The notes under the pieces: generated by a model
The model's database searches: none
What the model saw: only the letters and a program-made list of their open reading frames with translations
Told to the model about the DNA's origin: nothing
Shown here: piece after piece, positions 11,129 to 49,262 of the stretch
Layout of the letters: the number at the start of each line of letters is the position of its first letter
Position numbering within the stretch: the stretch's first letter is position 1
Program-made: the position numbers and the translations under genes
IMG/VR virus record: IMGVR_UViG_3300033146_003479
Location: 32,001-96,000 of that record
Reading direction: 5' to 3' (one strand)
Source: a virus
DNA: 64,000 bases

Positions 11129-12091
11129 TTATTCCTCACTAAGATATATATCTGCTACACATCCTACAAAATTTAACAGTTTATCTGCGGCTCTTGATGA
11201 TTTTTCTTGATATATTGCTAAATTCATTGCTACATTATTTATCTCAAAGTCAACATTATCAATTCTTTTAAATAAATAACCATAAATAGTTGTAAAATTA
11301 ATATCAGATAATTCCTGTAAAGTTTCTCTAACTTTCATTAAATTTTTAGTATTAATTGATTCAACTAAACGATCGATACTACCTCGACTAGTCACATTCA
11401 CTTGTGTAATTTCTCCAAATGTGTCATAAATATCCTCAAAGACCTCCCAGCAATCTCTATAATCAGGAAAATGATTAAATACGACCTTTGCTATAACTTC
11501 CGAACTATATTTAATATTCTCGGCTTCCAATACATCTTGAACTCTCTTCGAAAACGCTTGCATCATTTGTCCTTGCTCATCTTTCTGCAACTCAAACTCA
11601 AGAACCCTAAGTCGAGAACACAATGGCTCTATAAAATTACCATAATAATTTCCAGTAAGTATGAATCTCACCGAATCAGCATGCTCTTCAAGAAACATTC
11701 GCATCGCCTCTTGAGTCTGAGGAGTAAGACCATCAGCCTCATCAATAAAAACAATTTTTTGCTTTCCAAAAATAGAAACATTTTTAGCAAACGAGGTTAT
11801 CTTTGTTCGTAATGTATCGATGTTTCCATTTTGAGATCCATTAATCATTAACACATCTGCATCTAATGCTTCAATTATTATTTTCGCAATAGTTGTTTTC
11901 CCTGTCCCTGGATTTGGTGAAACTAATAACATATGTGGAATTTGTTTTGTGTCTATCCACTTCCGAACCTTTTTCTTGAGTCGTTCGGGTAAAATAACAT
12001 CATCTAATGTTTTTGGACGATATTTTAGTGCCCAAATACTCATCAATAACTCTTCTCTCTTCATTTTCATCTTACTCATAATGTTCTCCAT
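11129..12091 (-). CDS. gp44: Clamp loader large subunit, AAA+ ATPase (gp44)
   Basis: WALKYRPKTLDDVILP, Walker A PGTGKTT, Walker B FIDEAD, FILTGNY..LCSR, FPDYR. Confidence 0.95.
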   Translation of the reverse strand: MENIMSKMKMKREELLMSIWALKYRPKTLDDVILPERLKKKVRKWIDTKQIPHMLLVSPNPGTGKTTIAKIIIEALDADVLMINGSQNGNIDTLRTKITSFAKNVSIFGKQKIVFIDEADGLTPQTQEAMRMFLEEHADSVRFILTGNYYGNFIEPLCSRLRVLEFELQKDEQGQMMQAFSKRVQDVLEAENIKYSSEVIAKVVFNHFPDYRDCWEVFEDIYDTFGEITQVNVTSRGSIDRLVESINTKNLMKVRETLQELSDINFTTIYGYLFKRIDNVDFEINNVAMNLAIYQEKSSRAADKLLNFVGCVADIYLSEE

Positions 12092-34125: not shown

Positions 34126-36078
34126 ATGAAAAAGCAAATTGAAAAATTACAAACTATCATTAAACGTTCCAAAGAATTATATTATCATGGATTAATAAAT
34201 GATCCGGATTATATAACAGATCAAGAATATGATCAATTAGAAAAAGAATTAAAATCATTGGATCCTAATAATGAAATTTTAGATTATGTAGGATATGACA
34301 TATCTCAATCAACATTTAATAAAATTAAACATGTGGATAAAATGACTTCATTGGGAAAAGCATACACTGAAGAGGATATGCTACGTTGGAGAAAAGATTT
34401 TAATGATAATTTAAATATTATTGAATCTTTAAAAATGGATGGATTCGCAATAGAATTGGTTTATGAATGTGGTGAAGGTTCAGAATTTCAGGTAGAATAT
34501 ATTTTAAAGGAAGCATCTACAAGAGGAGATGGATTTATTGGAGAAGATATTACAGAAAATGTTAAAATGATTTCAGATATTCCTCATAGAATCATTATTA
34601 ATAATGATGATTTAAAAAAAGTAAATTCCACTATTAGAATTAGAGGAGAGATATTTATGAAAACAAGTATCTTTAATGAACTTCTAAAAGAAAATATCAT
34701 TGATGGAGAATCAAGAATTAGAAATATTGCTCCTGGATCAGTTAGACAAAAAGATCCTCTCGTTACTAAAAGAAGAAAACTAAACTTTTTTGCTTATGAT
34801 ATTAAAGGATGTGAATTTGATACATATAGTCAAAAAATGGAGTTTTTAAACAAAATGAAGATCCCAACAGTTCCAATGAATAAAATATCATTCGATGATA
34901 TGACGACTATGTATAACTCAATAATAATTAAAAAAGAGTTGATGGATTATCCCATCGATGGAGTAGTATTCAGATTAGATAATGAAGATGAATTTCAAAG
35001 TGCAGGAGAAACATCCCATCATCCAAAGGGATCTATTGCTTGGAAGTTTGAGGCTGAAACAGGAGTGAGTGTTTTGAGAAAAGTTGAATGGCAAGTAACA
35101 CGAACTGGACTTATTAATCCGGTAGGAAAATATGATCCAGTTGAAGTTGATGGAGCAATTTTAAGTGCCGCAACATTACATAACATTTCTCAGATGATGC
35201 GTTTAGATATTGGTATTGGAGATGAGATTGAAGTTGCTAGACAAGGTGGAGTGATTCCTAAAATATTCAGAGTTGTTTCAAAATCTTCAGCGGATAGTAC
35301 AGTGATAATTCCCTCAGAATGTCCAATATGTCATAAGCCAACTGAAATAGAAACTTCAGATGATGGTATAAAAACTTTACATTGCACAAATCATTTTTGT
35401 CCAGCAATCATGAAAGATCGTTTGAATCATTTTTGTAAAGTGATGGGTATAAAGGGAGTTTCTGATGCAATAATTAGTAAGTTGTATGATGAAAAGTTAG
35501 TTACAACTTTCGCTAATTTCTATGAATTGAAGATTGAAGATATTTTAAAATTAGATGGATTCAAACAGCGATCATCTGAAAAAATTATAAATGCAATTCA
35601 AGGACAACGAGAAGTTTCGTTTAATGTATTTTTAAGATCTTTGGGAATTCACACTTTAGGTAAAACATCATCGAAACTAATTGCAGATCGTTGTAACTCA
35701 ATAGAAGCGTTGGATGAATTAGAATTATCTGAGATTGAAGGTATTGGAGAAATTGGAGAAAATAGTATTAGAGAGGGGCTATTAGAGAATGAAGAATTAA
35801 TCACTCATTTATTGCAATATGTGACTATATCTATGGTGGACGAAACTATCTCTGAAGGTAAATTACAGAATCTTAATTTTTGTATAACTGGAAAACTTTC
35901 CGATAAGAAAATGATTCAATCCTTGATAGAATCCGCGGGAGGGAATATATTATCATCTGTGAGTTCTAAACTCGACTATTTGATATACGGTGATAAAGCA
36001 GGTAGCAAATTAGATAAAGCAAAGAAGAATAATGTTCCAATAATCACAGAAGATGAGTTCATGCTCATGTTAAAATGA
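34126..36078 (+). CDS. ligA: NAD+-dependent DNA ligase with BRCT domain
   Basis: KMDG adenylation motif, TRGDG..GEDITEN, IRGEIF, PIDGVV, WQVTRTG, ATLHN, C4 Zn finger, HhH and BRCT (FCITGKL). Confidence 0.97.
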   Translation: MKKQIEKLQTIIKRSKELYYHGLINDPDYITDQEYDQLEKELKSLDPNNEILDYVGYDISQSTFNKIKHVDKMTSLGKAYTEEDMLRWRKDFNDNLNIIESLKMDGFAIELVYECGEGSEFQVEYILKEASTRGDGFIGEDITENVKMISDIPHRIIINNDDLKKVNSTIRIRGEIFMKTSIFNELLKENIIDGESRIRNIAPGSVRQKDPLVTKRRKLNFFAYDIKGCEFDTYSQKMEFLNKMKIPTVPMNKISFDDMTTMYNSIIIKKELMDYPIDGVVFRLDNEDEFQSAGETSHHPKGSIAWKFEAETGVSVLRKVEWQVTRTGLINPVGKYDPVEVDGAILSAATLHNISQMMRLDIGIGDEIEVARQGGVIPKIFRVVSKSSADSTVIIPSECPICHKPTEIETSDDGIKTLHCTNHFCPAIMKDRLNHFCKVMGIKGVSDAIISKLYDEKLVTTFANFYELKIEDILKLDGFKQRSSEKIINAIQGQREVSFNVFLRSLGIHTLGKTSSKLIADRCNSIEALDELELSEIEGIGEIGENSIREGLLENEELITHLLQYVTISMVDETISEGKLQNLNFCITGKLSDKKMIQSLIESAGGNILSSVSSKLDYLIYGDKAGSKLDKAKKNNVPIITEDEFMLMLK

Positions 36079-36131
36079 ATTATATGATTCCATAAAAATT
36101 ATAAATAATGTAAAATGTTTGTGGAGTTATC

Positions 36132-36713
36132 ATGTCAAAAAAAGTATTGTTGTATATTGATGATTTTAATATGATCTCAAAGGAGATTCAAAAGAATCTG
36201 AATACATTGAAGCAAAAGTTGAAGTCGATGAAGAGTGTTCAAAAATGTATAATTTTAATTAAACAGGAGACTAATGATTTACTCACTGTAACAGAAAGGA
36301 AGCATTTATTAAATAAGACCTTAGATTCAGATAAGCAATTTGTGATCAAAACTACTAAATTAGCGAAGACATTTAAAATAATGAAGAAATTTGAAACCTC
36401 TAATATTGAAATTGAAACTATTTATGTTGACTCTAAGGATAAAAATTTCTTTGAATCAGGATTAAAAGGTCTCCCAATAAAGATTCAATCGTTTGATACT
36501 AAAGATCGAACTAATGATATCGTCGATGCTATTTCTAAAAATGAATATAAGAAGTATGTCAATTTAGTTCCAACTCCACTCATTGATGAATGGGAGTGGA
36601 TGAAAGAGAAGTTGTCTGGTAGAATGAAAGAGAGTGTTAATCCACATCTTTCATTGATGAATGATAGATTTTCTAAGATTTTAGAATTGATGGAGAATAA
36701 ATATGGAGATTAG
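36132..36713 (+). CDS. Degenerate HIGH-family nucleotidyltransferase-like protein (HxGH lost)
   Basis: DDFN, NDLLTVTERK.LL, IYVDSKD...F and AISKNEYKKYVNLVP line up with phage cytidyltransferase-like proteins; TATAAATA at 36100-36107. Confidence 0.45.
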   Translation: MSKKVLLYIDDFNMISKEIQKNLNTLKQKLKSMKSVQKCIILIKQETNDLLTVTERKHLLNKTLDSDKQFVIKTTKLAKTFKIMKKFETSNIEIETIYVDSKDKNFFESGLKGLPIKIQSFDTKDRTNDIVDAISKNEYKKYVNLVPTPLIDEWEWMKEKLSGRMKESVNPHLSLMNDRFSKILELMENKYGD

Positions 36714-36861
36714 TAGAGATGAGTTGTTAGGTTTGGTAGAAATTGCTATTAGAGAGGTTGAACGTCAATGTTTAACGGAGAAGATTAAACTTGACATTAT
36801 GAATGTGGTAAATCAAAAAGTAGATGATAAGGTCTTAGAACTATTCAATAAGGTTAAATAA
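36703..36861 (+). CDS. Small hypothetical protein (52 aa, not in track)
   Basis: GGAG RBS; MEISRDELLGLVEIAIREVERQCLTEKIK...FNKVK*. Confidence 0.5.
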   Translation: MEISRDELLGLVEIAIREVERQCLTEKIKLDIMNVVNQKVDDKVLELFNKVK

Positions 36862-36908
36862 ACTCGCAATTTTCCAAAAAATATGATATAATATATTGAA
36901 ACTTAACA

Positions 36909-37514
36909 ATGTTGGAGTATATTTTGGATAAATTAGACCGATTACTAAAGGAAGTTGAGCGAATGTCGATAACTGAATATAATGAATTTTATACTAAAAC
37001 TAAAGAACAAATTGATGGTGGTTTAACATTAGATATTTTTGATTTCGATGTGACTCTTTGTTGTACCGATTCAAAAGTTATAAAGACTAATGCTGATGGA
37101 ACAATTCAAAAACTATCGTCCACGGAGTTTAATAATATTAATGATTCAACGCTTGATAAATCATCTCTTGACTTTTCAGAATTTCATGAGTTAATTAATC
37201 CTAAAGTGAATGAAGATGTCCTTCAAGCATTTCGATTTTCATTGAAAAATAGTCGAGTGATTATATTGACTGCGAGACAATCTTCGATTCCAATTAGAGA
37301 ATTCTTAACTATGAATAATTTACCTCAAATTCCCATTTATTGTGATGAATTTAAAAGAGAATTTATTGAGAATATAATTTTAAGTGGTACCACATCTAGT
37401 ATAAATTTCTTCGAAGATGCTCCAAATTACATTCGAGATGCTAGACTTTTACAGAGAAAGTATCCTAATTTTAATTTAAATATTCATGAAACTTCTTTGG
37501 ATGGGTTTGCATAA
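36909..37514 (+). CDS. HAD-superfamily phosphatase (Pnkp-phosphatase-like)
   Basis: IFDFDVTL (DxDxT), IILTAR, KREFI and FFEDAPNY motifs. Confidence 0.8.
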   Translation: MLEYILDKLDRLLKEVERMSITEYNEFYTKTKEQIDGGLTLDIFDFDVTLCCTDSKVIKTNADGTIQKLSSTEFNNINDSTLDKSSLDFSEFHELINPKVNEDVLQAFRFSLKNSRVIILTARQSSIPIREFLTMNNLPQIPIYCDEFKREFIENIILSGTTSSINFFEDAPNYIRDARLLQRKYPNFNLNIHETSLDGFA

Positions 37515-39037
37515 TGATTGATATAAAAATAAAGAATTTAACAAAAGTTTTAACTAGTGATAAAAAAATCAAAGAATTCTTTAATGATGAATATGTCATT
37601 ACTGAAAAGTTTGATGGGACAAAATTAACAATAACTAGAAATAGTGTTGAGTTCGATAAAAGGAATTATAGTAACAATTGGATAATATCATATAAGGGAA
37701 ATGTAATTCTAAGAGATGAGATTGATAATATTAAATTGAAAAGTGTTCGAGATCACTCGATAGGAATTTCTCAATATGCATTAGTTCATGAGCATATGCG
37801 ACGAATTCATAAAAAAACAGAACAGATTCCTACAAATACTGAATTTTTTATAGAATTTATAATGAGAAAGCCGACATTAACTAGAAAGTATAAAATTTAT
37901 CATTCATTAGTTTTTTTAAAGTGTGAACGAGTAATTTTTACTACTGATGATTTAGAGTATGTGTCATCGTCGGGTTCTCAGGTGTTTGGTAAGATTTCTC
38001 CATTCGAACAATTGCAATTTGCTAATACTTTAAATCTTCACTCGTTACCTATTTTATATGAAGGTAAATTACATTATAACAAATTGGACTGGAGAAAATC
38101 GTTAGATAGTATAATTGACACATTCACTTCTTTCGAATCGATTTTTGGAGGAACTCCTGAAGGAGTAGTATTACGTTCTATTAATAATCAGTATAAGATA
38201 GTTCAGTTGGATCAATATGATAGACGAACTAGAGATATTATTAAAAATCAGTGGAGAATGGCTGACGTTGAGGAGACTGAATATTGGGATAAAGTTTATC
38301 AATTATCATCGAATTGGGTATCATTAGTAAAGAAGAATAATCCTGATTATAATGTTCGATGTATGTTGAGAGAATTGAGTGATAATATATATAGTAGACG
38401 ACCTAAGGTATTGCATACTAAAAAGAAGGTCATTAATCGACAAGATGATATTTATTTGACTAGTAAAATAATGATTAAAAAATTATTAGATATTGGTATT
38501 AACACTAAAACATTAGGACTTATTCCTATGGCGGCTAAACCTCTACATAAAGGACACTGGAGTTTAATTGAAAAGGCGAGTCGTGAGTGTGATAAAGTCA
38601 TAATTTTCACATCAACAATTAGTCGAGAGTTTATGAGTATTAAATCAGTTAATGCTATGTGGGCAATAATTAAGCCTAATTTACCTGAAAATGTTAGTGT
38701 GAGAGTTGTCGCTTCTCCTATTAATTCGGTGAATAGAGAGTTAGCGTACTATGATATTGTTGGTAAAAGTCCTATTCCAGAAATCCATGTATATGGTGGA
38801 AATAAAGATGCTAATGTGTGGAGGAATGTTGTTAAACAAAATGTTAAATTAACTAACAATGATAAAATATTTGTGCATTTATTAGATACTAATATTGTTA
38901 ACATTAGTGGTTCTCAGATGAGAGAATTTGTGCGATTAAATGATAAAGTATCTTTTATTGATGGACTTCCCAAAGGGTTTTCTGATAAATGTAAGATTGA
39001 TATATGGAATCTGTTATATAATTTGGAGGAAAAATGA
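37514..39037 (+). CDS. Fusion: RNA/DNA-ligase-type adenylation domain plus HIGH-family nucleotidyltransferase
   Basis: Ligase motifs I TEKFDG, III FFIEF, IV PEGVVL, V YKIV; C-domain KPLHKGH (HxGH) and ISGSQMR. Confidence 0.75.
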   Translation: MIDIKIKNLTKVLTSDKKIKEFFNDEYVITEKFDGTKLTITRNSVEFDKRNYSNNWIISYKGNVILRDEIDNIKLKSVRDHSIGISQYALVHEHMRRIHKKTEQIPTNTEFFIEFIMRKPTLTRKYKIYHSLVFLKCERVIFTTDDLEYVSSSGSQVFGKISPFEQLQFANTLNLHSLPILYEGKLHYNKLDWRKSLDSIIDTFTSFESIFGGTPEGVVLRSINNQYKIVQLDQYDRRTRDIIKNQWRMADVEETEYWDKVYQLSSNWVSLVKKNNPDYNVRCMLRELSDNIYSRRPKVLHTKKKVINRQDDIYLTSKIMIKKLLDIGINTKTLGLIPMAAKPLHKGHWSLIEKASRECDKVIIFTSTISREFMSIKSVNAMWAIIKPNLPENVSVRVVASPINSVNRELAYYDIVGKSPIPEIHVYGGNKDANVWRNVVKQNVKLTNNDKIFVHLLDTNIVNISGSQMREFVRLNDKVSFIDGLPKGFSDKCKIDIWNLLYNLEEK

Positions 39038-40458
39038 ATCGTAAAATAATTCGAGTTATAAGTGAATCTGAGAGAGAGTATTTTCAAGAATATTTAGATT
39101 TAGCCACAAATATTGATTCGCTGATGAAATTGAGGTTGATTTTAGTTGGAGGGTCTATCAGAGATTTATTAATTCGTGGTGATATTGTTGAACCTGAAAT
39201 TGATGATTTGGATTTTATGTTGGTTGATACCGATGGACATGGAGTCGTAGATGAAATTGATGTGTTGATGATTGAGTTGGCAAAATTAGATTATTCAATT
39301 GTGAATGACGGTAGAGAGTTTCTTCATTTCAAAGTAATACGAAATGGATTTGTGTTTGATATTGGTACTCCTCGAACTGAAATTTACGATGAATATAGTC
39401 GAAATCCGAAAGTTAAAGTGGGATCACTTCGAGATGATTATTTTAGACGAGATTTCACAGTTAATGCATTTTTTGCTCAAATAGTTAAGGTCGATGATCG
39501 AGTTGAATTGGAGTTATGTGGAGATGATGAGTTAATATCACGCTCGTATGATGATCTTTTATCGACCACATTGAACACTACTCAATATGAATCTAACGTT
39601 GTATTTGAAGAGGATCCTTTACGTATTCTACGAGCGATACGATTCATGGGGTATGGTTTTCAGTGTTCGAAGGAAATGAGTGTTGCTATTGATAATTTTG
39701 ATATGAATATATTCTTTAGGAAGGTATCGAAAGAGAGAGTTGCTATTGAATTGAAGAAGATATTAAGACGAGGAGATTTAGATTATTTTTTTGATCATCG
39801 AATTGTTAATAAGATTATTCCTGAATTTGATAATTTTATAAATCGAGAATATGAGTTTGATGAAATTGAGCATATTAAGAATGTGATTTTGAAAAGTCGA
39901 GAGTTATCTAATGACGATATGTTTTTATTAGTAGCATTATTTCATGATTTAGGTAAAAGTATAACTGGTACTATTCATAAAAGTCAAACTCGTTGGGCAT
40001 TTTTAGGACACGAAGATATATCATCAAAATGGGCGTACGATACTCTTAGACGATATCGATTTGATAATCAAACTTGCAATTCAGTGAGAGATATTGTGAA
40101 AATGCATATGTCATTGAAGTGGATTTCAAATTGGAAAAAAGGAACTATAGTGAAATTCATATTAAAACATTCACCAACATTAATACGTAATATTTTAGTA
40201 TTTAATCACATGGATTGGGGTGGAAAATCTGAGGAGTGGAAGATTAAATATAATGTGGCACAATCATTGGAAACGATAGATGAGATTGTGAATTATTGGA
40301 TAGACATTGTTGATGAAGTGGTGTTTTTTTATAGCAATGAACTAAGAGAAATTGGAGTTAATGCTAATGCTAATAAAAACATTCCACGAAATGAGTTACG
40401 AAATATTATTATTGGTGAAAAAATGAGATTTATTTTAAATAAGGAGAAATTATTGTGA
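39034..40458 (+). CDS. CCA-adding tRNA nucleotidyltransferase / poly(A) polymerase family with HD domain
   Basis: LVGGSIRDLL..DDLDF, RRDFTVNA, EEDPLRILRAIRF, VSKERV, LFHDLGK and FLGHEDIS. Confidence 0.92.
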   Translation: MNRKIIRVISESEREYFQEYLDLATNIDSLMKLRLILVGGSIRDLLIRGDIVEPEIDDLDFMLVDTDGHGVVDEIDVLMIELAKLDYSIVNDGREFLHFKVIRNGFVFDIGTPRTEIYDEYSRNPKVKVGSLRDDYFRRDFTVNAFFAQIVKVDDRVELELCGDDELISRSYDDLLSTTLNTTQYESNVVFEEDPLRILRAIRFMGYGFQCSKEMSVAIDNFDMNIFFRKVSKERVAIELKKILRRGDLDYFFDHRIVNKIIPEFDNFINREYEFDEIEHIKNVILKSRELSNDDMFLLVALFHDLGKSITGTIHKSQTRWAFLGHEDISSKWAYDTLRRYRFDNQTCNSVRDIVKMHMSLKWISNWKKGTIVKFILKHSPTLIRNILVFNHMDWGGKSEEWKIKYNVAQSLETIDEIVNYWIDIVDEVVFFYSNELREIGVNANANKNIPRNELRNIIIGEKMRFILNKEKLL

Positions 40459-40646
40459 AGTTGATATATTGTGTTGGTTGTGGAGAAAAATATAATCTAT
40501 CGAGTAGTTTTTTGATATCAAATACTTTTAATCCCAAACGAGTTGTAGTTTGGTGTGAAAACTGTGGTTTATTAGTGACTGGCAATATGATGATACATCG
40601 TGAGATTCAAAGTCCAATTATTAGATTTCCTAAATTGAGTTTTTGA
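40455..40646 (+). CDS. Small zinc-ribbon protein
   Basis: CVGC and CENC pairs; GTG start overlapping the CCA enzyme stop. Confidence 0.5.
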   Translation: MKLIYCVGCGEKYNLSSSFLISNTFNPKRVVVWCENCGLLVTGNMMIHREIQSPIIRFPKLSF

Positions 40647-40647
40647 T

Positions 40648-41253
40648 ATGAAAATATATGTTATTTCAGATACTCACTTTTTCCATTATAATATTATTAA
40701 GTATTGTGGTCGTCCATTTACAGATGAATATGAAATGAACGAGTATATTATCTCTCAATGGAATTCTTTAATTACTAATGATGATGTGGTTTTTCATTTG
40801 GGAGATTTTTCAACAGGACTCAAATGTCGATATGGAGAATTGCGAGAAGTGTTTTCTAGATTAAATGGACAAATACATTTAATTAGAGGGAATCATGATC
40901 ATCAATCAGATGAAGAATTGTTACAATTAGGATTTAAAAGTGTTCAGGAGTTTAAGATAATCAATGATACAATGTTGGTTCATTATCCATTTTTCTTACC
41001 CAAGGACAAATATAATAGTAAATTTCAACGATTTTACGATACATTTAATATGATATATACGGGAGAGAATTGTAGATATGTGCTATATGGACATTCTCAT
41101 GAATATCCATCGATATATGTGAATAAGTATAATGTTGCTGTTGATTTACACGACTTTAAGCCTATATTATTGGATGACATATTTAATAATGTATTTAAAA
41201 ATAATCTAATTCAAGAAAATATAATAAAGGAGAAAAAAGATGAGAATATTTGA
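40648..41253 (+). CDS. Calcineurin-like metallophosphoesterase
   Basis: SDTHF, HLGDF, RGNHD and YGHSH motifs. Confidence 0.9.
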   Translation: MKIYVISDTHFFHYNIIKYCGRPFTDEYEMNEYIISQWNSLITNDDVVFHLGDFSTGLKCRYGELREVFSRLNGQIHLIRGNHDHQSDEELLQLGFKSVQEFKIINDTMLVHYPFFLPKDKYNSKFQRFYDTFNMIYTGENCRYVLYGHSHEYPSIYVNKYNVAVDLHDFKPILLDDIFNNVFKNNLIQENIIKEKKDENI

Positions 41254-41695
41254 GTTTGCTACGGGATTTAAACTAGATTTAGATATGGTAATTGCGGTTG
41301 ATCATTCAACTCCGGATGGTTATGGCAATATGTCGTATTTTATTTTACTTAGTAGTGGTAAAAGACTCGAAGTATATGAAACAAAGTGTTATGATTATCT
41401 TGCATATCCTAGAGATGATTTTATTACTCGATGGGAAGAAGTAAAGTGTCCTAGCGATTCAATTGAACATTTTATGAATTATTGTGGTGATGTTGTTGAT
41501 ATTAATAAAGAAACTATGGAGTATCGCTTCGAGATAACAGATAGATGTTTATATACAATGTTTCATGATTCTGAGAGAGAGATGTTGTGGTATTTTAAGT
41601 CACTATATGATGTTGAATATATAGTGAGATGCACGAAATATTGTGTTGGACTGGGACAGAATCGTATTGTTGTTTTGAAAATAAAGGAGATATAA
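41240..41695 (+). CDS. Hypothetical protein
   Basis: AAGGAG RBS; overlaps the upstream gene. Confidence 0.5.
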   Translation: MRIFEFATGFKLDLDMVIAVDHSTPDGYGNMSYFILLSSGKRLEVYETKCYDYLAYPRDDFITRWEEVKCPSDSIEHFMNYCGDVVDINKETMEYRFEITDRCLYTMFHDSEREMLWYFKSLYDVEYIVRCTKYCVGLGQNRIVVLKIKEI

Positions 41696-41699
41696 TATT

Positions 41700-43382
41700 A
41701 TGGGTGGAAATTCACGAGCAATAAATAGAGAAACTGGTGAAGTTCAATCAATTAATGGAACTCCCGTATTTGCTCAAAAACTTGATTTGAGAGTAGTTAA
41801 TCGAAGAGTAGTTGTTAGTTTATTTACAAACACGTTCATCAATTTGTCTTCCATGTATGCTCAACAAAATCTTGGCAATCAATTGTGGGAACTGAAGAGA
41901 GAACTTTTCTCGACAGGATTAGTATACAATGGTTCATCTGAGCATTTATTCAATGATAGCATATCGGATGAAGAATTTGTGAAGTATAAACCGTTACTTG
42001 GTGATATTGATATTACCGTCGATGGAACAAAATTATCGAAGGTATTTGATTTATTAATTTTACTAGAAGGTAAAATTATCTATGAGAATGTGGACGGATT
42101 CATTCGATATATCGGTCAAAATAAATCTAAATTCCAAGGTGAGCAAATAAATTCTGTATTTGAGTTGAATGTGAATGATAAGAGTCATTATGTTCAGGTT
42201 GATTTTGAAGGAGTCGTTTATGAAAATGGAGTTCCTGATGAATTTTCGAAATTCGGACATTCATCTGATTGGTATGATATAACTAATGGTATTAAAGGAG
42301 TTGCTCATAAGTTTTTAATCATGAATTTAGTGCGAGGGAACACTTATTTATCTCCATCTCAAGGGATTCTTTTAACTAATGGTTCGATTGAGGATCCCAA
42401 TTCCGATAAATTAAGAGTTTCGGCTTCTCAGAAATATCTAAAGACATTTGCGTTTTCGATAACTAAAGGGCTTAGAAAGAAGGTTCGATATATTGGATTA
42501 AAAGATAGTATTCCTATGTATAAAGAATTATCAACATCCAATTCAATATATCAACGAGATTTGGTTGATATATTTCAAACTATATTTAATGTTTCTCCAA
42601 AAAAAGGAGAAATGAAGAAGTTCAGATCATTCATTGGAGTACTTGAACTTATTCAAAAATATTTTGATGTTAATGATGAACGTATCGCTCGAACTTTTGA
42701 TTTCTTATTGGATATAAATTTATTTGGAAATTCTGCTCAACGTTTAGATAGAGATAGTATGAAGGTGGATTTTGAGGTGAAGTATAATATGTTGGAGAAA
42801 ATCTTTGAGTTTATGCCTCAGTTGAAAACCTCAGATCGAACTGAGAAGATTAAGCATGCGATTGATTCTTATTATACTGTCCAGAATTATTTTAAAAGTA
42901 AAAATATAAATAAAACTACAGATAAAGCACAAATAGGAGAAAAAATGTCTGATACTATACAAAATGAAAATGCTCTTCGTCGAATCATTCAAGAGGAGAT
43001 TCAATTGATATTGAATGAAGATAGCAAATTGAATAAAACTTTATCTAAATTATTGAAGATTGTTAAGGAGACCGTGGGGCAAAAAGATTCTCGTAAAATA
43101 AAACGAGTTTTTATTTCATCCGATGGATCTAAATGGGTTGAAATTGAAATACCAAATACAACATATTCGTTGTCTTTAAATTTAAATAAAGATGAGATTT
43201 CATATGGCACAACTAAAATTGAAAAACTTTTTAAAATCAAAAGTTCAACTGCATCTAAGGAGTGGTTAGAGCATTCAAATAAACTTTTAAGGTATGCTGA
43301 AGACATTAAAGGTATTATGAAGATTTATGCGAAAATGAAGAAGTCCAAAAAAATTAAAACATTTATAGAAAAAGAACTTTAG
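41700..43382 (+). CDS. Pol-beta-superfamily nucleotidyltransferase-like protein (MGGN family) with appended C-terminal domain
   Basis: MGGN start, GSS, LGDIDITVD (GDxD), YVQVDF, GIKGVAHK; internal in-frame ATG at 42945. Confidence 0.65.
   Translation: MGGNSRAINRETGEVQSINGTPVFAQKLDLRVVNRRVVVSLFTNTFINLSSMYAQQNLGNQLWELKRELFSTGLVYNGSSEHLFNDSISDEEFVKYKPLLGDIDITVDGTKLSKVFDLLILLEGKIIYENVDGFIRYIGQNKSKFQGEQINSVFELNVNDKSHYVQVDFEGVVYENGVPDEFSKFGHSSDWYDITNGIKGVAHKFLIMNLVRGNTYLSPSQGILLTNGSIEDPNSDKLRVSASQKYLKTFAFSITKGLRKKVRYIGLKDSIPMYKELSTSNSIYQRDLVDIFQTIFNVSPKKGEMKKFRSFIGVLELIQKYFDVNDERIARTFDFLLDINLFGNSAQRLDRDSMKVDFEVKYNMLEKIFEFMPQLKTSDRTEKIKHAIDSYYTVQNYFKSKNINKTTDKAQIGEKMSDTIQNENALRRIIQEEIQLILNEDSKLNKTLSKLLKIVKETVGQKDSRKIKRVFISSDGSKWVEIEIPNTTYSLSLNLNKDEISYGTTKIEKLFKIKSSTASKEWLEHSNKLLRYAEDIKGIMKIYAKMKKSKKIKTFIEKEL
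42905..42947 (+). promoter_or_regulatory. Intragenic late promoter plus RBS plus in-frame ATG
   Basis: TATAAATA 42905-42912, AGGAGA 42935-42940, ATG 42945 (codon 416 of the 560-aa ORF). Confidence 0.65.
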
Positions 43383-43391
43383 GAGAACAGA

Positions 43392-43931
43392 ATGAAAGTA
43401 ACATTGTCTGAGAAAAGTCTAAGGAGATTAATTCGTCAAGAGACGACTAAACTGTTAAAGGAACAAGAGGAAAATGCATTTAATACGATCGATGATATGC
43501 AAAGTAAGTTTATAGAGGAGTTTAATAAAATTCTTAAAGAAAAATGGGCAAGAAAGATCAAAATGTTAAAATACGTTGATAATAGTTTTCAATTCATTTT
43601 AATTGGTGATGGTGATGAACGAGTTAAATTGGAATGGAATCCTAAATGGGATGTAACAATTAAAGGTAAAATTAAAGTGTCTCCAATTAAAGCCCTTAGA
43701 ATTGGACTTGAATTTTCCGAAAAAATGTATCGAGTTATTGTAAAAATTATTGAGAATGAGAAGGTTATTTATCCTATATTGGAAGAAATTTCTACAATGA
43801 TGAAGGATGGTGGAATGGGTAAAGAAGAGGTTAAAGATACTTCTGAAAAAAAAGTTGATGACTCTTTAACTGATGAATCTTCAACTGATGAATCTAATAA
43901 TGATAGTGAAAAAGGAGAAAAAGATGCGTAA
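43392..43931 (+). CDS. Hypothetical late protein (candidate internal head protein)
   Basis: LSEKSLRRLIRQE..LLKE N-terminal motif; acidic tail. Confidence 0.5.
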   Translation: MKVTLSEKSLRRLIRQETTKLLKEQEENAFNTIDDMQSKFIEEFNKILKEKWARKIKMLKYVDNSFQFILIGDGDERVKLEWNPKWDVTIKGKIKVSPIKALRIGLEFSEKMYRVIVKIIENEKVIYPILEEISTMMKDGGMGKEEVKDTSEKKVDDSLTDESSTDESNNDSEKGEKDA

Positions 43932-44407: not shown

Positions 44408-44436
44408 TTGACATTGCATTCAAAATATGATATACT
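44408..44436 (+). promoter_or_regulatory. Host sigma70/sigmaA-type promoter with extended -10
   Basis: TTGACA (44408-44413), 17-bp spacer, TG-A-TATACT (-10 at 44431-44436). Confidence 0.8.
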
Positions 44437-44478: not shown

Positions 44479-45072
44479 ATGATAACAGTGACTGGTGGAA
44501 TTTCTGTAGGGAAAAGTTTAATTGTGAATTATATATCAAATGAATATAATTTCAATATTATATCTGTGGATTTGATAGGACATCAAGTATTGTTGTGTGA
44601 AGATATTAAACGAGAAATATCATTTAATATTTCGAGTAAGATATTTGATATTAATGATAATATTGATCGACAAAAACTTGGGAAAATAGTTTTCTCTAAT
44701 AAAAAAAAGTTGGAGACATTGAATGCCATTGTGGGTCCATCTATTTTCTCTAAATTAAATGATGCTATTGAAGACTTGGGAGGGAAATCATCGAATGTTA
44801 TTTTGGAGCACCCAAAGATATTAGAATTCGATTATTATCGAGAATTTTCTCCGATAATTCAAGTTTCATCGATAAATCAATTACAGTGGCTAATGGAGAG
44901 AGATGGTATAAATGAGTCGGAAGCATTAATGAAAATAAATAGTCAATCTAAATTGTCAGAATTGATGAATAAGCCTGACTTTATGATTTCAACTGGTAAT
45001 TCAATGAGTGATAATTTAGAACAAGTTGATGTTATAATGGATTCTTTAATGTATAAAAAAATTAAAAGTTGA
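44479..45072 (+). CDS. coaE: Dephospho-CoA kinase family P-loop kinase
   Basis: VTGGISVGKS, DLIGHQVL, IDRQKLGKIVF and LNAIVGP match CoaE. Confidence 0.85.
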   Translation: MITVTGGISVGKSLIVNYISNEYNFNIISVDLIGHQVLLCEDIKREISFNISSKIFDINDNIDRQKLGKIVFSNKKKLETLNAIVGPSIFSKLNDAIEDLGGKSSNVILEHPKILEFDYYREFSPIIQVSSINQLQWLMERDGINESEALMKINSQSKLSELMNKPDFMISTGNSMSDNLEQVDVIMDSLMYKKIKS

Positions 45073-45104: not shown

Positions 45105-45959
45105 TTGGAGAAAAATGTGTCAAAAATCAAACTAGCCTTAACGTACGATGATGTTCAAATTATTCCGAAATTTTCAAAAATCAATAGTCGGTCGAATTGT
45201 AATCTGAGAAGCAGATTCACTAAGAATTATGTAGTAGATGTTCCTATAATTGCATCTCCTATGGATACCGTCACAGGAGACTCTATGATGATTGAAATGC
45301 ATAAATTGGGAGGAGCAGGGATTCTTCATAGATTTTCTGATATTGATGAACAAGTGAGAATAATTGAGTATATTGAGGATCAAGATGTTCGATTAATTCC
45401 ATCGTCGATTGGAGTTAAAGAGTCTTCGATTCAAGGAGCCGAACTATTATTGAAAGCGGGATCTAATGTGTTATTGATCGATGTGGCTCACGGAGATCAC
45501 GCACATGTGGAGCGAACAATTAAGTCACTGAAGGATAAATATTCAGGAAAATATGAGTTTGATATTATTGCTGGTAATATTGCAACTGCTGAATCTGCTG
45601 AAAATCTTATTAGATGGGGAGCAGATGCTTTGCGTGTTGGAATTGGAGGAGGATGTTTTATTCCAGGATCAAAAGTTAGAACTGAAAATGGATTGAAAAA
45701 CATCGAAGATATCACGATCGATGATAGAGTGTGGACACATACTGGAGACTTGCAACGTGTTGTTGATACATTGATGTTCGATAGAGATGAAGATATTATG
45801 AGAATTAATGATATTGAATGTACCAAAAATCATGAATTCTATGTTATAGATGCTGAAGATGTGCCAAATGTAACTGAAAGTAATATTCATAAGTTCGCTA
45901 GATGGATTCCTGCTGAAAAATTATCAACTCAGCATAAGTTGATAGAATTGATAACATAA
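45105..45959 (+). CDS. guaB: IMP dehydrogenase/GMP reductase N-extein fused to N-terminal split intein (true start probably GTG 45117)
   Basis: LTYDDVQIIP, PIIASPMDTV, GILHRF, IDVAHG, AGNIAT, RVGIGGG followed by intein CFIPGS. Confidence 0.92.
   Translation: MEKNVSKIKLALTYDDVQIIPKFSKINSRSNCNLRSRFTKNYVVDVPIIASPMDTVTGDSMMIEMHKLGGAGILHRFSDIDEQVRIIEYIEDQDVRLIPSSIGVKESSIQGAELLLKAGSNVLLIDVAHGDHAHVERTIKSLKDKYSGKYEFDIIAGNIATAESAENLIRWGADALRVGIGGGCFIPGSKVRTENGLKNIEDITIDDRVWTHTGDLQRVVDTLMFDRDEDIMRINDIECTKNHEFYVIDAEDVPNVTESNIHKFARWIPAEKLSTQHKLIELIT
45654..45956 (+). mobile_element. Split intein N-half (101 aa)
   Basis: Block A CFIPGSKVRTENGLKNIEDI; block B IECTKNHEFYV; ends at a stop with no endonuclease domain. 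Confidence 0.92.
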
Positions 45960-46047
45960 TAAAATAATATACATAGTGTGTTAATTGGCGGAGGAATACT
46001 GTGTATTGTTTTATTTGCGAAAAGGAAATTAATTAAGGAGAAAAAAG

Positions 46048-46167
46048 ATGAAATTTAAAATTAAAAATATTGATAATATAGAAGTTGTTCAATATTCAGG
46101 TAAAGTTTATGATTTGACTGTAGAAAAAGATCATTCGTATAATATTAATGGAGTTATTGTTCATAAT
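46048..46167 (+). mobile_element. Split intein C-half (40 aa)
   Basis: MKFKIK...block [13 protein letters not shown], block G VIVHN, then Ser+1; own AAGGAG RBS. Confidence 0.93.
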
Positions 46168-46674
46168 TCCGTCTGCTCAACTCGCATAATCACAGGAGTT
46201 GGAGTTCCAATGATAACTAGTATATTGGATTGCGTAGAAGTTGCAGATGAGTATGATATCCCAGTCATTGCGGATGGAGGAATTAAGACTCCTGGAGATG
46301 TAGCGAAAGCGTTGGGAGCAGGAGCATCAACTGTTATGCTAGGTAGTTTATTAGCAGGTACTCTTGAGAGTCCTGGAGTTATTAGTCGAGATGGAGTTTG
46401 GCCGAATGAGCAACTTTATAAGAAGTTCAGGGGCTCAGCATCACTCGCTAGTAAAATGGATCGTCAAGAAGGAGAAAAAAATGTAGAAGGAGTGAGTACT
46501 ATTATTCCATATAAAGGAAAAGTTAAGCGAATAGTTAATGATATTTGTGATGGAGTAAGATCATCTATGTCGTATGTTGGAGTTAATAATATGAATGATT
46601 TCAGTTCAAATGTGGAATTCGTTCAAGTAACGTCCTCAGGCATTAAAGAAGCATCTCCTCACGCAAAAAAATAA
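46048..46674 (+). CDS. guaB: C-terminal split intein fused to IMPDH/GMPR C-extein
   Basis: After HN: SVCSTR (catalytic Cys), [26 protein letters not shown] and [10 protein letters not shown]. Confidence 0.92.
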
Positions 46675-48998: not shown

Positions 48999-49262
48999 AT
49001 GAATATAATAAAAAGTAGATTGTCAGAGATTATTCGAGAAGAATTGGATATTGCCATTGAAAAAATTATCATAAGTCGAGTTCAAGAGAAATTAGGACGA
49101 CTTCGATCTGAGCCCGATACCTCAAAAAAATTGCAGGTAACAGAGAAAGTAATTAAGAACACCTCTGTTGAAATTTCAAAGTACATTAAGTTGAAAGGAT
49201 TAAATGAGTCGTTTGTGAACTCATTGAGTGACCGAATACTAAAAGATAGAATTGGAGAATAA
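48999..49262 (+). CDS. Small late protein (candidate internal head protein)
   Basis: TATAAATA at 48965-48972; AGGAG RBS; RLSEIIREEL and LNES motifs. Confidence 0.5.
   Translation: MNIIKSRLSEIIREELDIAIEKIIISRVQEKLGRLRSEPDTSKKLQVTEKVIKNTSVEISKYIKLKGLNESFVNSLSDRILKDRIGE

What the first reader, a model, noticed from the sequence alone, without database searches (positions are those of the whole stretch)
36132..43382. Dense nucleotidyl-transfer / RNA end-healing island next to the ligase
Seen: six enzyme-type genes in about 7 kb. They are a HIGH-NTase paralog lacking HxGH, a DxDxT HAD phosphatase, a ligase-fold (KFDG/EF/EGVV/K) domain fused to an intact HxGH NTase, a CCA-type enzyme with HD domain, a calcineurin-like phosphoesterase and a GDxD pol-beta NTase. 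Known: phage Rnl/Pnkp, CCA enzymes and phosphoesterases repair tRNA cut by host anticodon nucleases. Inferred: this is a multi-enzyme heal/extend/seal counter-defence module with three unrelated NTase folds, a combination I do not recognise as characterised. No Pnkp-type 5' kinase is evident within the cluster.
Basis: partly seen in the sequence, partly recalled or inferred. Interest (0 to 1): 0.75.

Follow-up and report, generated by a model that had tools for sequence, protein, structure and literature searches.

The report
Phage ligase–nucleotidyltransferase end-repair gene island
An uncultured T4-like giant phage carries a tight block of enzymes that look built to trim, refill and rejoin broken RNA ends, and its core (an RNA-ligase-type enzyme always fused to a small adenylyltransferase, plus a new polymerase-beta-type enzyme and a phosphoesterase) is a phage-only operon, unnamed in PHROGs and Pfam and absent from the papers I could search.

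Summary
All six enzyme calls hold at sequence and fold level.

- ORF A is a HIGH-NTase paralog that has lost HxGH.
- ORF B is a DxDxT HAD.
- ORF C is an Rnl2-like ligase domain fused to an intact PPAT/NMNAT-like HIGH NTase.
- ORF D is a class II CCA-type enzyme with an HD domain.
- ORF E is a calcineurin-type phosphoesterase.
- ORF G is a Pol-beta-superfamily NTase.

Comparative genomics recasts the island. Only C, G and E form a conserved unit. In 80 related viral loci the ligase domain always comes with the HIGH domain. A G homolog is adjacent in 70 loci and fused into one 954–1333-aa protein in 30. A Pnkp-like P-loop kinase appears in 11 loci and the phosphoesterase in 12. Three loci carry the full operon PolB | ligase-HIGH | kinase | phosphoesterase. 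This composition mirrors bacterial Pnkp plus RlaP, so heal/extend/seal of broken nucleic acid (most likely RNA/tRNA) is the best reading.

A, B, D and the NAD-dependent DNA ligase are additions specific to this phage. A looser copy with a CCA enzyme, Rnl1 and a kinase exists in Vibrio phage pv27.

The role of the HIGH domain, the substrate and any counter-defence function are not shown. This scan has already noted the same module on at least six other phage genomes.

The parts
34126..36078 (+). NAD-dependent DNA ligase (LigA). A neighbour only, not part of the conserved module.
   Evidence: Pfam DNA_ligase_aden 8e-51, OB, HhH and BRCT domains. No LigA homolog lies within 10 kb of the C homolog in any of 80 related loci.
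36100..36107 (+). TATAAATA box (T4 late-promoter consensus) 24 nt upstream of the ORF A start. Function uncertain.
   Evidence: The window-wide count (16) equals chance (15.7), so this is only a lead.
36132..36713 (+). ORF A, 193 aa: a HIGH-superfamily (cytidylyltransferase-like) fold paralog of the C-terminal domain of ORF C. The HxGH motif is lost (NMIS in its place), so it is probably catalytically inactive.
   Evidence: Atlas structure TM about 0.7. Family alignment A3. hhalign A3 against A1: 93.5%, E 2e-7.
36909..37514 (+). ORF B, 201 aa: HAD-fold phosphatase (D45xD47xT49) with an N-terminal helix of about 35 aa.
   Evidence: phrog_415, 1e-6. Atlas features 0.95 and structure TM 0.83 to DUF2608/HAD-IIIB viral proteins. 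Not linked to C/G in other loci.
37514..39037 (+). ORF C, 507 aa. It has three parts: an Rnl2-like covalent nucleotidyltransferase (ligase) domain (aa 1-245, K32 nucleophile), a helical linker (aa about 250-330), and a PPAT/NMNAT-like HIGH NTase (aa 331-507, H345-K-G-H348, ISGS465).
   Evidence: Catalytic residues are invariant in 80-81 homologs.
39034..40458 (+). ORF D, 474 aa: class II tRNA nucleotidyltransferase (CCA-type head, RRDFTVNA and EDPLRILRAIRF motifs) with a C-terminal HD phosphohydrolase domain. In this phage it sits between C and E.
   Evidence: Pfam PolyA_pol 3.7e-12, HD 2.8e-5. phrog_2244 1e-32. NCBIfam tRNA_CCA_actino 7e-37, below its cut-off. Sequence.
40648..41253 (+). ORF E, 201 aa: calcineurin-type binuclear metallophosphoesterase, a conserved third member of the module.
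   Evidence: Metallophos_2 2e-12. phrog_547 6e-41. PDB 1xm7 3e-13. Adjacent to the C homolog in 12 loci. A 40%-identical homolog exists in Vibrio phage pv27.
41240..41695 (+). ORF F, 151 aa: unknown, with no homolog in related loci.
   Evidence: No hit in Pfam, PHROGs or NCBIfam. A singleton in the clustering.
41700..42899 (+). ORF G core (aa 1-400): Pol-beta-superfamily nucleotidyltransferase of an unnamed phage family (phrog_19290). Motifs are GGN at aa 2-4, GS78-79, GD102xD104 and D168.
   Evidence: Motif residues are invariant in 68 of 68 complete homologs.
42900..43382 (+). ORF G tail (aa 401-560). It starts with an in-frame ATG (42945), followed 10 aa later by the leader-like motif LRRIIQEE and then a domain weakly similar to ORF H. 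A TATAAATA box lies at 42905.
   Evidence: Most G homologs end at about 400 aa. The tail is shared with P0041. hhalign against H: 58%, E 1e-4. Motif enrichment. Box.
43392..43931 (+). ORF H, 179 aa: N-terminal leader-like motif (SLRRLIRQE) plus a domain that in other phages is fused to the C-terminus of ORF-A-family HIGH NTases.
   Evidence: An HMM of the C-terminal extension of long A homologs hits ORF H at E 2e-19. Motif.
44479..45072 (+). ORF J, 197 aa: dephospho-CoA kinase (CoaE) family P-loop kinase with its own sigma-70-like promoter (44408-44436). It lies nearby but is not shown to belong to the module.
   Evidence: PF01121 86.6 bits. TIGR00152 108.9 bits against a cut-off of 65.55. PDB dephospho-CoA kinases 4e-16. 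Promoter. No homolog in the 80 loci.

Best explanation
The island is this phage's elaborated version of a conserved, essentially phage-restricted nucleic-acid end-repair module.

The core has three members: ORF C (an Rnl2-like ligase domain obligately joined to a small HIGH-superfamily adenylyltransferase), ORF G (a new family of Pol-beta-type nucleotidyltransferases) and ORF E (a binuclear metallophosphoesterase). Relatives add a Pnkp-like 5' kinase.

Proposed mechanism (inferred, not shown):
1. A host nuclease leaves 2',3'-cyclic-phosphate or 3'-phosphate and 5'-OH ends.
2. The phosphoesterases (E, the HD domain of D and the HAD enzyme B) restore a 3'-OH.
3. A kinase restores the 5'-phosphate. 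Relatives encode a Pnkp-like one. None is present on this 60%-complete contig apart from the CoaE-type ORF J.
4. G adds back lost nucleotides at internal 3' ends, and the CCA enzyme D rebuilds tRNA 3' termini.
5. The ligase domain of C (Lys32-AMP) seals the break.

The HIGH domain is required in some way, because it is never separated from the ligase. My best guess is that it supplies or recycles the adenylate donor, or handles adenylylated 5' ends. ORF A is a degenerate, probably non-catalytic paralog of that domain.
For: Domain identities.

Linkage in 80 loci from IMG/VR:
- LIG with HIGH in 80 of 80 (79 fused, 1 adjacent split).
- PolB present in 70 of 80. It is fused as LIG-HIGH-PolB in 30, and 26 of the 38 PolB-then-LIG-HIGH pairs overlap or lie within 4 nt. 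Six of the 10 loci without PolB are cut by a contig end.

Informative fusions:
- kinase-PolB (L044, the closest IMG/VR relative);
- kinase-LIG-HIGH (L071);
- CCA-head plus a G-like domain (P0092).

The kinase matches AAA_33 (37 bits), phrog_505 'polynucleotide kinase', and weakly the kinase end of bacterial Pnkp TIGR04075.

The translationally coupled operon PolB|LIG-HIGH|KIN|MPE occurs in L050, L051 and L058.

Catalytic residues of all three NTase domains are invariant across homologs.

Vibrio phage pv27 carries E-like, Rnl1, AAA_33 kinase, CCA enzyme, G-like and C-like genes on one strand within about 15 kb.

Known precedents:
- Bacterial Pnkp is kinase + Mn-dependent 2',3' phosphoesterase + ligase (PMC3675462 abstract).
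- RlaP Pol-beta NTases next to RNA ligases add 1-2 nt to damaged RNA 3' ends (PMC12776372).
- A survey of jumbo phages describes ligase, kinase, HAD, RlaP and CCA repair sets (PMC7824862).
Against: - No biochemical or genetic data exist.
- The HIGH domain has no role in any known heal-and-seal pathway.
- G has no match to RlaP PF10127. Its best structural matches are family X DNA polymerases at only Z 7-8.2, so DNA is a possible substrate.
- This contig has no Pnkp-type kinase and no tRNA genes.
- In most relatives and in CP220 the module sits among head and packaging genes and glycosyltransferases, not among RNA-repair genes.
- A, B and LigA are linked only here.
- The Pfam RNA_ligase hit of ORF C (24.9 bits) is below the gathering score of 27.
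Confidence: 0.6

Rival explanations
1. A DNA rather than RNA repair kit. G is a minimal family-X-like gap-filling polymerase, C seals DNA nicks, and E, B and the kinase clean DNA ends. This would parallel Pol X plus ligase systems of large eukaryotic viruses, and would serve phage genome repair or end processing around packaging.
For: The longest structural alignments of G (170-190 residues, Z 7-8.2) are to Pol beta, mu, lambda, TdT and ASFV Pol X palm-thumb. The module sits next to terminase, portal and protease genes in many loci. E weakly resembles the ligase-associated DNA-damage phosphoesterase PdeM (TIGR04123, 4e-5, below cut-off). Earlier scan notes reached this reading on other genomes.
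Against: The ligase domain matches RNA ligases (Rnl2, NgrRnl, Rnl1, Rnl3), not DNA ligases, in Pfam and Foldseek. It has no OB domain. G-like domains are fused to a CCA/poly(A)-polymerase head. The island here and in pv27 includes a tRNA nucleotidyltransferase, and pv27 also has Rnl1. The phage already has a dedicated DNA ligase.
Confidence: 0.17
2. Dinucleotide-cofactor metabolism. The HIGH domain is an NMN or phosphopantetheine adenylyltransferase that rebuilds NAD+ (for the adjacent NAD-dependent LigA, or against NAD-depleting defences) or dephospho-CoA (finished by the CoaE kinase ORF J). The kinases and phosphatases act on small molecules.
For: The C-family profile hits NMNAT (2.9e-9), PPAT (5e-9) and NadR. 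Structure Z is 13.9 to PPAT and 12.7-13.1 to NadD and NadM. Many homologs carry the GRFQP motif typical of NadM/NadR. LigA lies 1.4 kb upstream of ORF C, and a bona fide CoaE lies 1.1 kb downstream of the island. First-stage note e1-5942665 proposed an NAD+/NMN loop.
Against: This reading does not explain the obligate fusion to an RNA-ligase domain or the near-universal Pol-beta partner. Neither LigA nor CoaE is linked to the module in any of 80 loci. CP220 carries the C homolog alongside an ATP-dependent DNA ligase. The kinase in relatives resembles polynucleotide kinases, not ribosylnicotinamide kinase. No NAMPT-type partner was seen among the ORFs examined in the window.
Confidence: 0.1
3. 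No functional unit. A run of unrelated early or auxiliary genes happens to encode phospho- and nucleotidyl-transferases.
For: A, B, F, H and LigA have no conserved linkage. The flanking genes (CoaE, split IMPDH-like genes) are ordinary auxiliary metabolic genes.
Against: The synteny and gene fusions of C, G, E and the kinase across 80 loci cannot be chance.
Confidence: 0.05

Closest known systems
Bacterial Pnkp (kinase / metallophosphoesterase / ligase) of the Pnkp-Hen1 RNA repair system (e.g. Clostridium thermocellum Pnkp)
   Same: The enzyme set is the same: a P-loop 5' kinase (in relatives), a calcineurin-type binuclear 2',3' phosphoesterase and a covalent lysyl-AMP ligase, encoded together. 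The kinase of relatives weakly matches the kinase end of TIGR04075.
   Different: The functions are on separate or differently fused polypeptides. The ligase is Rnl2-like and always carries a HIGH NTase. A Pol-beta NTase is an almost constant extra partner. No Hen1 was seen. This window has no Pnkp-type kinase.
RNA ligase plus RlaP (PF10127, RNA-ligase-associated Pol-beta NTase) repair systems of bacteria and jumbo phages
   Same: A Pol-beta-superfamily NTase is genetically coupled to an RNA ligase. RlaP adds 1-2 nucleotides to damaged RNA 3' ends before sealing (PMC12776372; PMC7824862).
   Different: G has no PF10127 match even at E 10. It has a larger palm-thumb resembling family X polymerases. 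It is frequently fused to the ligase-HIGH protein.
T4 RNA ligase 2 (gp24.1) / Pfam RNA_ligase PF09414 family, including Naegleria Rnl and kinetoplastid editing ligases
   Same: The best fold matches of ORF C aa 1 to about 330 (Foldseek 9e-7). Motifs I, III, IV and V are conserved. From general knowledge, kinetoplastid editing also pairs Rnl2-type ligases with Pol-beta terminal transferases.
   Different: The Pfam score is just below threshold (24.9 against 27). Motif V has a single Lys. There is an obligate C-terminal HIGH NTase domain, which I know of in no characterised RNA ligase.
T4 Pnkp + Rnl1 tRNA repair that counters the PrrC anticodon nuclease
   Same: A phage-encoded heal-and-seal logic. 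The HAD phosphatase ORF B matches the PHROG that holds phage Pnkp-type proteins (phrog_415).
   Different: There is no Rnl1 and no Pnkp kinase on this contig. The ligase family differs, and there are extra NTases.
NadM/NadR NMN adenylyltransferases and PPAT (CoaD)
   Same: The HIGH domain of C, and the A family, share the fold, size, (H/T)xGH motif and ISxT motif.
   Different: No Nudix or ribosylnicotinamide-kinase partner is present. The domain is always attached to a ligase domain, and its substrate is unknown. ORF A lacks the catalytic histidines.
Multifunctional CCA-adding/repair enzymes with an HD domain (E. coli Cca type)
   Same: ORF D has the class II head, motifs B and D, and an HD domain.
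   Different: It is far below every NCBIfam equivalog cut-off (127 bits against 439). Whether it adds CCA, CC, A or poly(A) is untested.

Membership tests
Covalent nucleotidyltransferase / RNA ligase (Pfam PF09414, Rnl2-like): ORF C N-terminal domain | Motif I KxDG with the nucleophilic lysine | tested here: met
   K32-F-D34-G35. K, D and G are invariant in 80 of 80 complete homologs.
Covalent nucleotidyltransferase / RNA ligase (Pfam PF09414, Rnl2-like): ORF C N-terminal domain | Motifs III (E), IV (EG) and V (K) | tested here: met
   E114, E216-G217 and K228 are invariant in 81 of 81.
Covalent nucleotidyltransferase / RNA ligase (Pfam PF09414, Rnl2-like): ORF C N-terminal domain | Score at or above the Pfam gathering threshold | tested here: not met
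   24.9 bits against a cut-off of 27. Homologs P0002 and P0003 carry a precomputed PF09414 hit.
Covalent nucleotidyltransferase / RNA ligase (Pfam PF09414, Rnl2-like): ORF C N-terminal domain | RNA ligase fold | tested here: met
   Foldseek: T4 Rnl2 9e-7, NgrRnl 2e-5, T4 Rnl1 6e-5, archaeal Rnl3 1e-4.
Covalent nucleotidyltransferase / RNA ligase (Pfam PF09414, Rnl2-like): ORF C N-terminal domain | Self-adenylylation and strand-joining activity | not testable with these tools
   Needs purified protein.
HIGH-superfamily nucleotidyltransferase (PF01467; PPAT/NMNAT class): ORF C C-terminal domain | (H/T)xGH motif and ISxT motif | tested here: met
   H345-K-G-H348. H348 is present in 81 of 81, the first position is H or T in 80 of 81, and S465 is present in 81 of 81.
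HIGH-superfamily nucleotidyltransferase (PF01467; PPAT/NMNAT class): ORF C C-terminal domain | Rossmann-like HIGH fold covering the whole domain | tested here: met
   Z 13.9, rmsd 2.7, 150 aligned residues of 159 (PPAT). NadD 13.1, NadM 12.7. Profile against PDB: NMNAT 2.9e-9.
HIGH-superfamily nucleotidyltransferase (PF01467; PPAT/NMNAT class): ORF C C-terminal domain | Substrate class (NMN, phosphopantetheine or other) | tested here: inconclusive
   PPAT and NMNAT matches are tied in both sequence and structure.
HIGH-superfamily nucleotidyltransferase: ORF A | HxGH catalytic motif | tested here: not met
   N-M-I-S occupies the aligned position, where relatives P0096 and P0098-P0102 have H-x-G-H. 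The fold and family are retained.
Pol-beta-superfamily nucleotidyltransferase: ORF G | GS ... DxD ... third acidic residue | tested here: met
   G78-S79, D102-I-D104 and D168 are invariant.
Pol-beta-superfamily nucleotidyltransferase: ORF G | Pol-beta palm fold | tested here: met
   Rows 1 to 33 of the VIA list are, apart from one alarmone synthetase (rank 24), Pol-beta-fold nucleotidyltransferase-like proteins. The best are Pol beta Z 8.2 (174 aligned) and Pol mu 7.3. The Z values are only middling.
RlaP (PF10127) | Match to the family model | tested here: not met
   No match in the whole contig at E up to 10. No Pfam hit for G at 0.01.
Bacterial Pnkp-type heal-and-seal system | 5'-OH polynucleotide kinase present | tested here: not met
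   None in ORFs A to H or on the contig. It is present in 11 related loci. ORF J is CoaE-type.
Bacterial Pnkp-type heal-and-seal system | Binuclear metallophosphoesterase next to the ligase | tested here: met
   ORF E. Adjacent to the ligase gene in 12 loci.
Class II CCA-adding enzyme with HD domain: ORF D | PolyA_pol head, motif B RRD(F/Y)T(I/V)NA, motif D EDxxR, HD motif | tested here: met
   Pfam hits. RRDFTVNA, EDPLRILRAIRF and FHDLGK are in the translation.
Class II CCA-adding enzyme with HD domain: ORF D | Equivalog-level score or CCA-adding activity | tested here: not met
   Best NCBIfam hit 127 bits against a cut-off of 439. Activity cannot be tested here.
HAD phosphatase: ORF B | Motif I DxDx(T/V) and HAD fold | tested here: met
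   D45-F-D47-V-T49. Atlas structure TM 0.83 to DUF2608/HAD-IIIB clusters.
Dephospho-CoA kinase (CoaE): ORF J | Equivalog model above its cut-off | tested here: met
   TIGR00152 108.9 bits against 65.55. PF01121 86.6 bits.

The most novel reading that the evidence does not exclude
The enzymes may be a pre-made kit carried in the virion. The leader-like peptide (M-x6-9-LRRIIKEE type) and the H domain tether NTases such as G and the A family for loading into the capsid. The repair or modification enzymes would then enter the cell with the DNA and act before any phage gene is expressed. In this reading the ligase-bound HIGH domain works directly on polynucleotide 5' ends, by making or resolving adenylylated or dinucleotide-type ends, rather than on a free cofactor.
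Probability: 0.2. Interest if true: 0.85.

Novelty: new variant of a known kind. Interest (0 to 1): 0.66.

Why it matters
Phage RNA repair is the textbook counter to anticodon nucleases, but it is known from only a few enzyme families (T4 Pnkp, Rnl1, Rnl2, RtcB, RlaP).

This work delimits a large phage-restricted system. It occurs in at least 80 IMG/VR contigs and in cultured Campylobacter CP220-like and Vibrio pv27/Va1-like phages, against only 4 MAG contigs among 185,579 cellular genomes. Three different nucleotidyltransferase chemistries are hard-wired together in it, often within one polypeptide of about 1300 aa.

Both core families are 'unknown function' in PHROGs and absent from Pfam. 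If the repair reading holds, the system would give:
- a new RNA ligase class with an obligate adenylyltransferase partner, a domain with no role in any known heal-and-seal pathway;
- a new terminal-transferase or gap-filling family;
- testable counter-defence genes in phages used against Campylobacter and Vibrio.

Tried and rejected
- Megablast of the island against GenBank phages found no match.
- The search for related loci with the single ORF C protein found no pattern hit. With the ORF A alignment it found no confirmed locus.
- phmmer of C, G and B against PDB gave nothing useful. The G-family profile against PDB gave no credible hit.
- BLASTP of A against C was not significant. The relationship appeared only with profiles and structure.
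- RlaP PF10127, AAA_33, Rnl1 PF09511, RtcB and DUF6267 are all absent from the contig. The DUF6267 model also failed to ring in any control genome, so that result is uninformative.
- A weak Zeta_toxin-like P-loop at window 11840-11956 lies in an unrelated minus-strand ORF.
- The idea that the module serves the adjacent NAD-dependent DNA ligase was rejected as the main reading, because LigA is never linked elsewhere.
- The sigma-70 promoter scan was uninformative in this 30%-GC DNA (93 sites against 85 expected). The TATAAATA count equals chance.
- BLASTP of the G tail against H was not significant. hhalign was only suggestive.
- ORF F and the small ORFs 36703-36861 and 40455-40646 stayed unassigned.
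- The key review by Burroughs and Aravind (2016, PMC5062991) is not held.
- The hydrolase next to the CCA gene of pv27 has no PDB relative.

Full report
**Context.** The window is bases 32001-96000 of a 134,396-bp IMG/VR viral contig. CheckV estimates it at about 60% complete. It is a 30%-GC, T4-like large myovirus with gp32-type SSB, T4-type structural genes and virion proteins. At about 33.2-34.1 kb gene polarity switches. From there a plus-strand block runs as follows:
- NAD-dependent DNA ligase (34126-36078);
- ORFs A to H (36132-43931);
- an acidic ORF I;
- a CoaE-type kinase J;
- two IMPDH-like ORFs.

ORF A has no sequence-family hit. Its Atlas model superposes on cytidylyltransferase-like proteins at TM about 0.7. 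A full HMMER scan found 11 relatives. In their alignment six members carry H-x-G-H where ORF A has N-M-I-S. The A-family profile aligns over 150 columns with residues 335-507 of ORF C (hhalign 93.5%, E 2e-7). 'HIGH-NTase paralog lacking HxGH' is therefore accurate.

ORF B has D45xD47xT49 and a HAD fold.

The AF2 model of ORF C (pLDDT 88, pTM 0.83) matches T4 Rnl2, Naegleria Rnl, T4 Rnl1 and archaeal Rnl3 with its N-terminal part. Residues 331-507 match PPAT, NadD and NadM at Z 12.7-13.9. A family profile hits NMNAT and PPAT at about 1e-9.

ORF D is a class II tRNA nucleotidyltransferase with an HD domain. ORF E is a calcineurin-type phosphoesterase.

ORF G (AF2 pLDDT above 90 for aa 1-400) has an invariant GS...GDxD...D signature. 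It yields only Pol-beta-fold proteins as top structural matches. The longest alignments are to family X polymerase palm-thumb, at a middling Z of 7-8.2. In BFVD it resembles only uncharacterised phage proteins.

**What is conserved.** An alignment-driven scan of IMG/VR returned 80 loci encoding ORF C relatives. tblastn, all-against-all clustering and domain HMMs show the following.
1. The ligase domain is never without the HIGH domain: 79 fused, and one split into adjacent genes (L060).
2. A G homolog lies on the same strand next to it in 70 of 80 loci. Six of the ten exceptions are cut by a contig end.
3. In 30 loci a single ORF of 954-1333 aa carries ligase, HIGH and Pol-beta domains. The global protein collection also holds such fusions of 903-1303 aa.
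4. Of the 38 loci in the order PolB then ligase-HIGH, 26 have overlapping or nearly abutting genes.
5. An E-type phosphoesterase is adjacent in 12 loci.
6. A P-loop kinase is present in 11 loci. It is once fused to PolB (L044, the closest IMG/VR relative, arranged C-E-[kinase-G]) and once fused to ligase-HIGH (L071).
7. L050, L051 and L058 carry the complete coupled operon PolB | ligase-HIGH | kinase | phosphoesterase.

The kinase matches AAA_33 above threshold, phrog_505 'polynucleotide kinase', and weakly the kinase end of bacterial Pnkp. The catalytic residues of all three nucleotidyltransferase domains are invariant across the set. One database protein (P0092) fuses a CCA/poly(A)-polymerase head to a G-like domain.

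ORF A, ORF B, LigA and CoaE have no counterpart in any of the 80 loci. The CCA enzyme appears once. The family is nearly absent from 185,579 cellular genomes, with only four MAG contigs.

**Cultured phages.** C and G homologs co-occur in Campylobacter CP220-like and Vibrio Va1/pv27-like phages, and are annotated as hypothetical proteins. In CP220 they lie 65 kb apart, and C sits among head genes.

In pv27 one strand carries the following within about 15 kb:
- an E-like phosphoesterase;
- a gp63/Rnl1-type RNA ligase;
- an AAA_33 kinase;
- a CCA enzyme;
- G;
- C.

This is a looser copy of the island, sitting beside canonical RNA-repair genes. It is the best independent support for including the CCA enzyme in the functional picture.

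**Interpretation.** Kinase plus binuclear phosphoesterase plus lysyl-AMP ligase is the composition of bacterial Pnkp (PMC3675462 abstract). A Pol-beta NTase coupled to an RNA ligase is the RlaP arrangement. RlaP adds one or two nucleotides to damaged RNA 3' ends and is needed to restore over-trimmed tRNA (PMC12776372). It is common in jumbo phages together with CCA enzymes and HAD phosphatases (PMC7824862).

The most economical reading is a heal/extend/seal system for broken polynucleotides, probably RNA or tRNA. This phage has added a CCA/HD enzyme between C and E, and a HAD phosphatase and a degenerate HIGH paralog upstream. G is not an RlaP family member. The resemblance is in how it works, not in membership.

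Four things remain unexplained.
- The obligate HIGH domain. PPAT and NMNAT are equally good matches, and no known heal-and-seal pathway needs such an enzyme.
- The missing kinase on this incomplete contig.
- The absence of tRNA genes.
- The habitual location of the module among head and packaging genes in relatives. From my own knowledge, T4 rnlB (gene 24.1) also lies among head genes, so this location does not argue against repair.

**Extra anatomy.** The last 160 aa of G are not part of the family core, since most homologs end near 400 aa. This tail begins with an in-frame ATG (42945), followed ten residues later by LRRIIQEE.

The same motif starts ORF H and ORF 48999-49262. That is three occurrences in the genome against 0.01 in shuffles. 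It also sits about 8 residues from the N-terminus of ten ORFs in related loci.

ORF H is homologous (E 2e-19) to the C-terminal extension that long ORF-A-family proteins carry. The G tail is weakly H-like. 'NTase - leader-like peptide - H domain' is therefore a recurring architecture. In this phage A and H are separate genes bracketing the island.

TATAAATA boxes precede ORF A (36100) and the internal ATG (42905). Their number in the window is no more than chance.

Earlier notes of this scan on other genomes describe the same PolB/ligase-HIGH module and propose capsid loading through such leaders. I did not test packaging.

**Rivals.** I weigh three alternatives.
- DNA repair by a Pol X-like enzyme plus ligase: 0.17.
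- NAD+ or CoA-type cofactor synthesis: 0.10. This includes the NAD+/NMN loop of note e1-5942665 and a PPAT-like plus CoaE pairing.
- Coincidental clustering: 0.05, already excluded for C, E and G.

**Verdict.**
- The true unit is the C-(E)-G module with an optional kinase.
- It is a new variant of known heal-and-seal systems.
- It is unnamed in PHROGs and Pfam, and I found no description of it in the papers I could search.
- This scan has seen it repeatedly on other phage DNA.

Noticed in passing
window 44479-45072 (+): A bona fide dephospho-CoA kinase (CoaE; TIGR00152 108.9 bits against a cut-off of 65.55). The best sigma-70-like promoter of the region lies just upstream (44408-44436). CoaE is rare in GenBank phage records (18 of 50,697, mostly fragments). 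It lies 5.4 kb from a PPAT-like HIGH domain. PPAT and CoaE catalyse the last two steps of CoA synthesis.
   Followed up: partly
window 42975, 43419 and 49020 (+); related loci L005, L006, L008, L014, L026, L042: A leader-like peptide (L-[RSKE]-[RESK]-[IL]-[IL]-[RQK]-[EQ]-E, e.g. LRRIIKEE) lies about 8 residues after the initiator Met of many otherwise unrelated ORFs. It also occurs inside ORF G after an in-frame ATG. There are three hits in this genome against 0.01 in shuffles. It may be a targeting or processing signal.
   Followed up: partly
window 43392-43931 (+) and proteins P0095, P0097, P0099-P0102, P0104: ORF H is homologous (E 2e-19) to the C-terminal half of 376-430-aa phage proteins whose N-terminal half is an ORF-A-type HIGH NTase with intact HxGH. 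A fused gene elsewhere therefore corresponds to two genes here, lying 6.7 kb apart on either side of the island.
   Followed up: partly
L011:11630-12920 (+) and the other fusion proteins of about 1300 aa: A segment of about 430 aa between the HIGH and Pol-beta domains has no assignment. The only hit is weak, to the crAss001 auxiliary capsid protein family (PF25650, 7e-4).
   Followed up: no
Campylobacter phage CP220, NC_027997.1 53.6-54.5 kb (locus L090): One 355-aa open frame combines an HD-domain stretch similar to that of ORF D with an AAA_33 kinase (51.7 bits). This looks like an HD-Pnk-type end-healing enzyme in a phage that also carries C and G homologs.
   Followed up: no
related loci, e.g. 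L029:7839-9974, L034:7159-9093: Large multidomain glycosyltransferase proteins (GT1 + GT9 heptosyltransferase-like, or GT1 + FkbM methyltransferase) lie 2-6.5 kb upstream of the fused module in 17-18 loci. Terminase, portal and prohead protease genes lie downstream.
   Followed up: no
window 45105-46674 (+): Two adjacent ORFs match the two halves of one PHROG 'dehydrogenase' family (phrog_9582 positions 7-183 and 183-348). This is consistent with the split IMPDH-like gene noted by the first stage.
   Followed up: no
L086 (JAOZSQ010000001.1, 427-kb contig binned as a Thermoplasmatota MAG): One of only four 'cellular' hits of the ORF C family lies on a 427-kb contig. This may be a mis-binned giant phage.
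   Followed up: no
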